In this document: positions 9,508-11,529 of the stretch, one piece after another
Numbering within the stretch: the stretch's first letter is position 1
Layout of the letters: every line of letters starts with the position of its first letter
Assembly (NCBI GenBank): GCA_947176685.1
Contig: CAMWRL010000001.1
Span: 1-34,430, forward strand
From: an uncultured Ruminococcus sp.
GTDB taxonomy: Bacteria; Bacillota; Clostridia; Oscillospirales; Ruminococcaceae
DNA length: 34,430 nucleotides
Reading direction: 5' to 3'
Program-made: the position numbers and the translations under genes
Notes under the pieces: model-generated
Databases searched by the model: none
Told to the model about the DNA's origin: nothing
Seen by the model: only the letters and a program-made list of their open reading frames with translations

Positions 9508-11529
9508 TTATTCCCCGAAAGCCGTTATTATTCTTTCGATTCTCTCCATAAGGTCGCCTGTGAGTACTTTCTTTTCCTCGATTTCCTCAATAATGTCCTG
9601 TCCGTAACTCCTTATATAGTTCATAAGTTCCGTGCGGTATTCTCTTAATTCTTTCAGCGGAATGTCGTCAAAAAAACCGTGCTGTGCGGCATACAGTAAA
9701 ATAACCTGTTCGTAATGCGGAAGCGGATTATATAACGGCTGTTTGAGCAGCTCCGTAAGCATATGACCGTGATTAAGCAAATCAGTTGTAGCCTTGTCGA
9801 GTTCGGACGAAAACTGCGTAAAGATTTCCATTTCCTTGAACTGCGCCAAATCTATACGGAGATTTCCGGCGGCTTTTTTCATAGCCTTGGTCTGAGCCGC
9901 ACCGCCTACACGGGAAACTGAAAGTCCGTAATTTACGGCGGGTCTGAGACCGGAATTGAATAATTCGCTTTCCAGAAAAATCTGACCGTCCGTTATAGAG
10001 ATTACATTTGTGGGGATATATGCCGAAATATCTCCGGCAAGGGTTTCGATAATGGGCAGTGCGGTCAGTGAACCGCCGCCGTGTTCATCATCAAGACGGC
10101 TGGAGCGTTCAAGCAGTCGTGAGTGCAGATAGAAAACGTCACCGGGATAGGCTTCTCGTCCGGGAGGACGGTGCAGCAGCAGTGACATTGCACGATAAGC
10201 AACAGCGTGTTTTGACAGGTCATCATAAACTATTAAAACGTCCCTGCCTTTTGACATGAAGTACTCAGCCATAGCCGTACCGGAATAGGGTGCTATATAC
10301 TGAAACGGTGCGGGTTCGCTTGCGGAAGCCGACACTACTACGGAATATTCCATAGCACCATATTTTTTAAGAGTGCTGACTACCTGTGCAACCGTTGATG
10401 ACTTCTGACCGATTGCAACATATATACAGATAACGTCCTTGCCCTTTTGGTTTATAATAGTATCAACGGCAATTGAAGTTTTTCCGGTTTGTCTGTCGCC
10501 TATTATAAGCTCACGCTGTCCACGACCGATAGGAAACATTGAGTCTATAGCAAGAATACCCGTCTGCAAAGGTACGTTTACGGATTTTCTTTCAATAACG
10601 CCCGGAGCTTCACGTTCGATAGGAAAATAGTCGTCTGCTTTGATAACGCCCAATCCGTCAATCGGAGAGCCGAGAGCGTCAACGACACGCCCGAGAAGTT
10701 CATCACTTACGCCTACTCCGGCACGTTTTCCGGTGCGTACTACGGAAGAACCCTCTGTAAGTCCGTGTTCCTGTCCCAGAAGCACAACACCTGTTGTTTT
10801 TTCTTCAATGCTCTGTACAATACCTCTTATGCCGTTTTCAAATTCAACGAGTTCGCCGTACATAACACTGTTCATTCCGTGAATACGTGCTATACCGTCA
10901 CCGATACGTGTTATGAAACCCGTTTCAGAAGTACCGGACTTTGTGGTAAAATCTTTTACTTCGGTTTTGAGTACGGATATGATGTCACCCGAATTTGCAT
11001 TATCACTGGATTCAATAAGTTCCGTTGCCCTGTTCTTGAAAGTTTCTTTCATAAGTCTGAGGCTTGTACGGTAACTCTTATCATACTCAACGTCACCGGC
11101 ATTAAGTATGAAACCGCCGATTATATCAGGGTCGTGACGGTATTCGATAGCAACGTCTTCCTTGACAAAACGCTCCATAATAAATTTGCGCAAATCCGCC
11201 TGCTGGGATTCGGTAAGGGGAGTGACGTATCTTATAACAGCCCGTATACTGTGCTGTTTTTCAAGAAGTACTTCGCTGTATTCATCAAAGATTTCCGGCA
11301 GACTGTCAGTCATACCGTCCCTGACGGCGTTTATCAGGAATTTGTGCATATTTTCGGGAAAAAGTTTTTTAATTATGTTTCTTTTTTCGTCCTGAGTGAC
11401 AAGAGGATTTGAAAGAGTATCGGCAACGTCCGGACAGGTAACAAAGACATTTCTTACTGTATCAATATCTTCCTGCGGAATATCAAGCCGGATAAGCTCT
11501 TTAAGAAAATCTTTCTGATTGTCTTTCAT
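9508..11529 (-). CDS. atpA: Fused ATP synthase delta-alpha subunit (AtpH-AtpA)
   Basis: Residues 1-165 are delta/OSCP-like ([47 protein letters not shown]). After a ~14-aa linker comes a full alpha ([48 protein letters not shown]). There is no separate atpH in the operon. Confidence 0.95.

What the first reader, a model, noticed from the sequence alone, without database searches (positions are those of the whole stretch)
9508..11529. Natural delta-alpha fusion in an otherwise complete F1Fo ATP synthase operon
Seen: one 673-aa ORF joins a delta/OSCP-like domain to a full alpha through the linker [14 protein letters not shown] (about 10993-11037). The linker has no stop, no in-frame start and no SD, so this is not a simple stop-codon read-through. 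No other atpH is present. The first delta helix reads KDFLKEL where free delta usually has an (R/N)YA.AL motif involved in docking on alpha. Known: F1 is alpha3beta3 with one delta, which anchors one b2 stalk and one a subunit. Inference: the fusion gives three deltas per F1 and so up to three b2/a stators on one c-ring. That could raise the H+/ATP ratio in a fermenter with low pmf. From memory, engineered delta-alpha fusions form multi-stalk enzymes and a few natural fusions are annotated in Firmicutes, so the gene form may not be unique; I know of no characterised native enzyme.
Basis: partly seen in the sequence, partly recalled or inferred. Interest (0 to 1): 0.82.

Follow-up and report, generated by a model that had tools for sequence, protein, structure and literature searches.

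The report
Whole delta fused to ATP-synthase alpha
In Ruminococcus gut bacteria the small delta anchor of the rotary ATP synthase is joined, whole and in frame, to the alpha subunit and has lost the usual residues at its predicted alpha-gripping patch, so each enzyme head likely carries three anchors and may hold two or three side stalks instead of one, which is untested.

Summary
Real. ORF 9508-11529 (-) encodes 673 aa: a complete delta joined to a complete alpha, with no other atpH/atpA in this 81%-complete assembly. It is not an assembly error: 115 of 121 Ruminococcus genomes carry the stop-free junction. Natural delta-alpha fusions are in print, but the named ones and the engineered three-stalk enzyme lack delta's N-domain (Ueno 2025); this one keeps a six-helix N-domain (pLDDT 90) under purifying selection (omega about 0.16). 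Its helix-1 docking positions are remodelled: position 9 is L/I/V in 139 of 139 fused versus A/G/S in 22 of 22 free deltas. Best reading (0.5): three deltas per F1, each offering a b2 site, giving a two- to three-stalk H+-type enzyme; main rival (0.35): retained N-domains hold it to one stalk. No Rnf, Ech or H+-PPase was found in five close relatives, so there it likely pumps protons rather than makes ATP. Fusions are common in Clostridia (17 of 79 sampled). This scan reported the same fusion before in another Ruminococcus. New variant of a known kind; stalk number untested.

The parts
9508..11529 (-). atpH-atpA fusion ORF, 673 aa
   Evidence: orthologues 672-678 aa; 115 of 121 genus genomes
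11254..11529 (-). delta N-terminal domain (aa 1-92), predicted six-helix bundle of the canonical delta/OSCP-N fold
   Evidence: AF2 pLDDT 89.7; Foldseek TM 0.6-0.77 to delta/OSCP N-domains, E>0.001; profile E 2.5e-9 to 22VL_d and 6e-4 to 6N2Y_I
11488..11508 (-). remodelled helix-1 patch (aa 8-14): L9 and E11 where free deltas have small residues; new conserved K10 and R14
   Evidence: register to PS3 delta
11038..11253 (-). delta C-terminal domain (aa 93-164), the b2-binding domain in solved enzymes
   Evidence: aligns to engineered 9JC1 chain, E 5e-13; 43 of 72 columns at least 95% conserved
10987..11037 (-). linker (aa 165-181): predicted helix extension to 173, low-confidence loop 174-180; variable in length and sequence
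   Evidence: omega 0.27
9508..10986 (-). complete alpha subunit with N-terminal helix, barrel, Walker A at aa 344 and C-domain
11530..12039 (-). atpF (b, 169 aa); its stop abuts the fusion's ATG
12078..12299 (-). atpE (c, 73 aa), H+-type pattern (E-A-T, no Na+ ligand set)
   Evidence: ion assignment from recalled motif
12334..13020 (-). atpB (a, 228 aa from the ATG at 13020)
8589..9494 (-). atpG (gamma)
6571..7962 (-). atpD (beta)
6148..6558 (-). atpC (epsilon)
7974..8585 (-). passenger single-TRD hsdS-like ORF inside the operon (not part of the enzyme)
13161..13189 (-). best promoter-like match upstream of atpB (10 of 12); consensus match only

Best explanation
The gene encodes a whole delta joined in frame to the only alpha found in the genome, so each F1 head likely carries three deltas, and the enzyme is predicted to bind two or three b2/a stators on one c-ring rather than one. 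Inferred steps: each delta C-domain holds its own alpha's N-terminal helix in cis and presents a b2 site, as in the engineered enzyme 9JC1. The N-domain no longer has free alpha helices to grip, its helix-1 groove has been filled, and it is kept as a folded cap that probably packs against the other N-domains above the threefold axis, as the delta-N dimer does in two-stalk Chloroflexus F1Fo. The result would be about 7-10 H+ per ATP for a c10 ring. In this Rnf-less subclade it likely runs as an economical ATP-driven proton pump; in Rnf-bearing species it could make ATP at low pmf.
For: Shown: fusion fixed in 115 of 121 genus genomes, 102 of them with no other alpha match. No conserved internal start: 1 of 45 loci has a linker start codon with an SD-like score of -6 or better; 11 of 120 proteins have any linker Met. 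The junction is about 7 aa longer than the engineered one and otherwise collinear. delta-C and the alpha N-helix are strongly conserved (omega 0.07, 0.05). Helix 1, one of two helices that bind alpha's N-terminus in OSCP (PMC4057687), has L/I/V at position 9 in 139 of 139 fused versus A/G/S in 22 of 22 free deltas, and E/D at 11 in 137 of 139 versus A/V/S in 22 of 22; six deeper-branching Ruminococcus fusions also have large residues at both. The N-domain is about 12 aa shorter than PS3's; Chloroflexus's shortened delta-N permits two stalks (PMC12002316). Other Clostridia fusions show partial or full N-domain loss, so canonical docking is dispensable after fusion.
Against: The N-domain keeps the canonical six-helix fold, not the four-helix Chloroflexus form, and Ueno names that domain as the stalk limiter. 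It is retained across the genus (114 of 115 fusions match from residue 5 or earlier; one is cut by a contig end), which a limiter role explains equally well. The shortening is shared with unfused sister deltas (gap-free alignment to L061), so it is no adaptation to fusion. Four independent full-length fusions keep the small residue at position 9. The 139 sequences are kin and count as one evolutionary event. One working delta-C per head is enough to explain its conservation. At 2-3 stalks a pump stalls near 50-80 mV (assumed delta-G 50 kJ/mol, c10), low for a fermenter (recalled). SD scores show no consistent boost of a and b.
Confidence: 0.5

Rival explanations
1. Three deltas, one stalk: the three retained N-domains crowd the top of F1 so that only one delta-C reaches a b2-competent pose, or b and a are limiting. 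The fusion serves as a covalent tether that replaced the lost non-covalent docking and fixes assembly, with an ordinary H+/ATP ratio.
For: Canonical six-helix fold kept and never deleted in the genus sample; N-domain omega 0.16; N-domain is the known limiter; no primary H+ pump found in close relatives, so a low stall voltage would be a cost; even the engineered enzyme averaged 1.26-2 stalks.
Against: The groove that lets delta-N take the central seat looks filled; covalent linkage places every delta-C next to its alpha; Chloroflexus shows two N-domains can share the top.
Confidence: 0.35
2. Polyprotein or internal restart: the chain is cut in the flexible linker, or alpha is also made from an internal start, so mature F1 has free alpha and a single delta.
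For: Residues 174-180 are predicted disordered; the linker is the least conserved part.
Against: No conserved cleavage-like motif (1 of 17 linker columns at least 95% conserved); no conserved start or SD; a released delta would lack the small-residue helix-1 patch that all 22 free deltas keep.
Confidence: 0.08
3. Assembly or sequencing artefact, or a recent neutral stop loss.
For: The window comes from a fragmented, 81%-complete assembly.
Against: Same fusion in isolates (R. flavefaciens FD-1, ND2009, SAb67), in 115 of 121 genomes and in independent contigs; monophyletic in the genus (SH-aLRT 99).
Confidence: 0.01

Closest known systems
Engineered delta(deltaN)-alpha fused Bacillus PS3 FoF1 (PDB 9JC1; Ueno et al. 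2025, PMC12229609)
   Same: delta C-terminus joined to alpha N-terminus by a short linker; collinear over aa 96-230; best Foldseek match.
   Different: Natural; keeps the 92-aa N-domain that the engineers removed; linker about 7 aa longer; stalk number unknown (engineered: 0/1/2/3 stalks in 15/51/26/8% of particles, H+/ATP 5.8).
Natural delta(deltaN)-alpha fusions of Acidaminococcus fermentans (D2RLW6), G4Q3K6, A0A1I2C5T3 (named in Ueno et al.)
   Same: Natural in-frame atpH-atpA fusion in a standard operon of a gut anaerobe; not characterised.
   Different: Those lack delta-N. I did not fetch or align these proteins.
Chloroflexus aurantiacus two-stalk F1Fo (PDB 9ITJ series; PMC12002316)
   Same: Native enzyme with more than one delta per F1 and a shortened delta-N kept on top of the head.
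   Different: Delta is free, two copies, 85-aa four-helix N-domain dimer; here fused, three copies expected, 92-aa six-helix N-domain; 9ITJ delta is not among the rows shown.
delta-alpha fusions noted by Mulkidjanian, Kuchevskiy and Dibrova (bioRxiv 10.64898/2026.10.01.756066)
   Same: [quoted passage not shown]
   Different: One sentence; no Ruminococcus in the main text; says fusions come with shortening, whereas this delta is as long as its free sisters.
UniProt 'Multifunctional fusion protein' of R. flavefaciens (A0A1H6J5M9, A0A1M7GIR8)
   Same: Orthologues, 676 aa.
   Different: A database name only; no study found.

Membership tests
F-type F1Fo ATP synthase | Genes for a, c, b, delta, alpha, gamma, beta, epsilon in the standard order | tested here: met
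   delta present only as the fusion
F-type F1Fo ATP synthase | One free delta and one stalk per F1 | tested here: not met
   No free atpH found in G000; stalk number itself not testable
H+-coupled F-ATPase | c subunit lacks the Na+ ligand set (polar residue in helix 1; E-S/T-T) | tested here: met
   E-A-T in 57 of 62 loci with full-length fusions, 4 unread, 1 E-A-I; motif recalled
Ueno-type delta(deltaN)-alpha fusion | delta C-domain fused in frame to the alpha N-terminus | tested here: met
Ueno-type delta(deltaN)-alpha fusion | delta N-domain absent | tested here: not met
   Folded 92-aa N-domain present and conserved
Ueno-type delta(deltaN)-alpha fusion | Two or three b2/a stators and raised H+/ATP | not testable with these tools
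   Needs cryo-EM or biochemistry
Chloroflexus-type two-stalk F1Fo | Shortened four-helix delta-N (about 85 aa) | tested here: not met
   Six helices predicted, 92 aa; shorter than PS3 by about 12 aa
Chloroflexus-type two-stalk F1Fo | delta-N self-association above F1 | not tested
N-ATPase (alternate F1Fo) | beta-epsilon first in the operon, no delta gene, delta-C on b | tested here: not met
   Standard order; alpha 615 bits against a cut-off of 750 for TIGR03324; b is 169 aa

The most novel reading that the evidence does not exclude
Ruminococcus builds a native three-stalk F1Fo (alpha-delta)3 beta3 gamma epsilon a3 b6 cn in which three full delta N-domains, freed from alpha docking, form a new threefold cap through their remodelled helix 1, giving about 10 H+ per ATP. 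It would be the highest-geared rotary ATPase known and the only H+-type rotary enzyme of most members of a major cellulolytic genus.
Probability: 0.2. Interest if true: 0.85.

Novelty: new variant of a known kind. Interest (0 to 1): 0.52.

Why it matters
Stalk number has only lately been shown to set H+/ATP, and delta's N-domain is held to be the limiter. A culturable genus (R. flavefaciens) in which all three alphas should carry a whole delta tests that rule directly. Clostridia also supply a natural series (free short delta, whole fusion, partial N-domain, C-domain only, b-deltaC-alpha) that can be expressed and compared. Either result informs: more stalks would change energy budgets for fibre-degrading gut anaerobes; one stalk would show that delta-N limits stalk number even when tripled.

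Tried and rejected
VIA-align on the N-domain model: not obtained; on the 268-aa model it reported mostly the alpha barrel. The 268-aa model has pTM 0.36, so its inter-domain layout and the 16 A rmsd to 9JC1 carry no information. SD-energy comparison of a, b, c and alpha across operon types gave no consistent signal: b -10.5 versus -8.5, a -8.8 versus -11.4 kcal/mol, fused versus free short delta. No RNA holder listed. Direct search for free-delta relatives gave almost only contig-cut fragments of fusions (P0122 not followed up). Searches for R. flavefaciens ATPase proteomics or pmf data, for natural atpH-atpA fusion papers and for the E. coli delta docking-residue mutants found only the papers cited; the E. 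coli Tyr11/Ala14 data are recalled, not seen. PMC5709465 and PMC5706428 (passages) do not describe delta-alpha fusions. Rejected: artefact; N-ATPase; vestigial decay of delta-N (omega 0.16); single origin of all full-length fusions (AU p 1e-44, 8 against 36 rows; the operon may move laterally, so this counts gene histories). atpE duplication is not fusion-specific (present in unfused sisters L057, L061).

Full report
Observation. The ORF at 9508-11529 (-) is 673 aa. Pfam places OSCP at aa 18-163 and the three alpha domains behind it; NCBIfam atpA covers aa 179-671 well above cut-off. The operon reads a-c-b-(delta-alpha)-gamma-[hsdS-like]-beta-epsilon. The b stop abuts the fusion's ATG. Codons 165-181 hold no stop and no common start codon. 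No other delta or F-type alpha was found in the 81%-complete assembly; contig C108 carries a V/A-type ATPase whose K subunit has a Na+-type pattern (motif recalled).

It is real and old. A search with aa 1-230 gave 834 proteins; the 120 listed are 435-678 aa, most full length, and all carry both OSCP and alpha domains. 26 GTDB loci include R. flavefaciens isolates. Of 121 genus genomes (G000 included), 115 have the stop-free junction (one cut by a contig end), 5 have only an unfused operon, and 1 has no match; 13 of the 115 have a second, unfused alpha. In the four such second operons fetched, delta is free and long, with an intact Y-A-x-A motif, and c is Na+-type, so the fused operon is the H+-type one. 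Contigs from three of four independent runs span the junction without an indel. On the alpha tree the genus fusions form one clade (SH-aLRT 99) near free short-delta operons L057 and L061 and the fusion L097.

Origin. In 5 of the short-delta unfused operons (L057, L058, L098-L100) delta and alpha are in frame, 6-9 nt apart, with a strong SD over the delta stop; 10 others are out of frame. The fused linker is about as long as stop plus spacer plus alpha leader in L057 (14 versus 11 codons, counted). Loss of the stop followed by decay of the restart signal is the likely origin (inference). Today only 1 of 45 loci has a linker start codon with an SD-like score.

How common. Counting stop-free matches that begin before residue 150: 21 of 139 family genomes and 17 of 79 class genomes with an alpha match carry some delta-alpha fusion; 3 and 4 of these include the N-domain (six matches were not listed; 19 of the 21 family cases and 12 of the 17 class cases were seen in fetched loci). 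Forms seen: whole delta, partial N-domain (L059, L064, L087), C-domain only, and b-deltaC-alpha (L056). One origin for all whole fusions is rejected.

The point that matters. Ueno et al. (PMC12229609; I read parts 1-4 of 7 of the text and searched four of five supplement files) got up to three stalks only after deleting delta's N-domain, and the natural fusions they name lack it. This protein keeps it. AF2 folds aa 1-94 as six helices at pLDDT 89.7, matching delta/OSCP N-domains at TM 0.6-0.77, though with E above 0.001. It aligns without gaps to a free sister delta (36% identity). Over 10 disjoint pairs from 45 genes, dN of the region over dS of the gene is 0.16 for delta-N, 0.07 for delta-C, 0.27 for the linker and 0.025 for the alpha core; 19 of 91 N-domain columns are at least 95% conserved. 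It is maintained, not decaying.

But its docking face has changed. Helices 1 and 5 bind alpha's N-terminal helix in OSCP (PMC4057687, passages). Aligned to PS3 delta, positions 8-12 are the Y-A-x-A-L motif. Among 139 distinct fused and 22 free sequences, position 9 is L/I/V in all fused and A/G/S in all free; position 11 is E/D in 137 fused and A/V/S in all free; R14 is new (137 of 139); the arginine after helix 5 is in 11 of 22 free and 0 of 139 fused. Six deeper Ruminococcus fusions have I/M/L at 9 and Y/L/F at 11. From memory, E. coli delta Tyr11 and Ala14 are F1-binding residues; I could not find that paper. Against over-reading: these are kin, one event; and four independent whole fusions (L050, L065, L097, L102) keep the small residue at 9.

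Mechanism. Shown: one gene, whole delta plus whole alpha, sole alpha match in 102 of 115 genomes. Established: F1 has three alphas. Inferred: three deltas per head; each delta-C binds its own alpha helix and offers a b2 site, as in 9JC1, to which the junction is collinear; delta-N has lost its ligands and been resurfaced. Unknown: whether three N-domains leave room for two or three stalks. Chloroflexus shows that two shortened N-domains can share the top and give two stalks (PMC12002316, passages and Discussion), but its domain is a four-helix 85-mer. I put multi-stalk at 0.5, one stalk at 0.35 and processing at 0.08.

Physiology. Full-scoring RnfD is in 22 of 25 other genus genomes, but not in G000, G002, G198 or G394, and none of five further close relatives (92-98% complete) gave RnfD, a complex-I/Ech membrane subunit or H+-PPase. 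There the enzyme likely hydrolyses ATP to export protons. Extra stalks would make each proton cheaper but cap the pmf near 78 mV (two) or 52 mV (three) for a c10 ring and 50 kJ/mol (assumed values). That cap is a real argument against full triple occupancy in this subclade.

Novelty. The gene form is noted in print: Ueno (N-domain-less cases) and one sentence in Mulkidjanian et al. (passages and section 3.1; supplements closed and may list this clade). UniProt names the orthologue a fusion protein. Searches found no characterised native delta-alpha enzyme; subscription journals are mostly outside the library. This scan has reported the same fusion in another Ruminococcus and other fusions elsewhere. 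What this work adds is the genus-wide fixation, the selection on and resurfacing of delta-N, the H+/Na+ split between the two operons, and the lack of a primary pump in this subclade. Verdict: new variant of a known kind, interest 0.52.

Noticed in passing
window 7974-8585 (-), between atpG and atpD: Single-TRD hsdS-like ORF, 29% GC against 41% for the genome, inside the atp operon. The slot is variable: hsdS of about 189-427 aa (ORF lengths, some from upstream starts or cut) in 8 loci, other inserts or nothing elsewhere. In two runs the slot is empty and in two the TRD core is replaced by 428 other bases. G000 has further hsdS genes on C11 (directly after a thiamine gene cluster), C28 and C186, but only weak N6-methylase matches. 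Looks like an orphan specificity-subunit cassette riding on housekeeping operons.
   Followed up: partly
L008-L017, L020, L022-L024, L030-L049 (many), L067; also unfused L057, L061: Tandem, near-identical atpE copies in 28 of 50 Ruminococcus loci; the window has one.
   Followed up: partly
L125-L128, L052: A second, unfused Na+-type F1Fo operon in a minority of Ruminococcus genomes (13 of 115 beside the fusion; 5 with only an unfused alpha).
   Followed up: partly
L061 (G194): Free delta of 255 aa with a tandemly duplicated C-terminal domain, in a close sister of the fused clade.
   Followed up: no
L056 (G031): 753-aa b-deltaC-alpha triple fusion beside a second b gene.
   Followed up: no
L107 (G347): Possible free 88-aa delta with only the C-domain; it lies near the contig start and may be cut.
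   Followed up: no
L020 and L022; G410: R. flavefaciens FD-1 shows the fused gene on two contigs, and G410 has two equal matches; duplication or assembly redundancy not resolved.
   Followed up: no
window 126-2474 (+): GH5 cellulase with CBM65, CBM74-like and dockerin domains, fitting a cellulosomal Ruminococcus.
   Followed up: no
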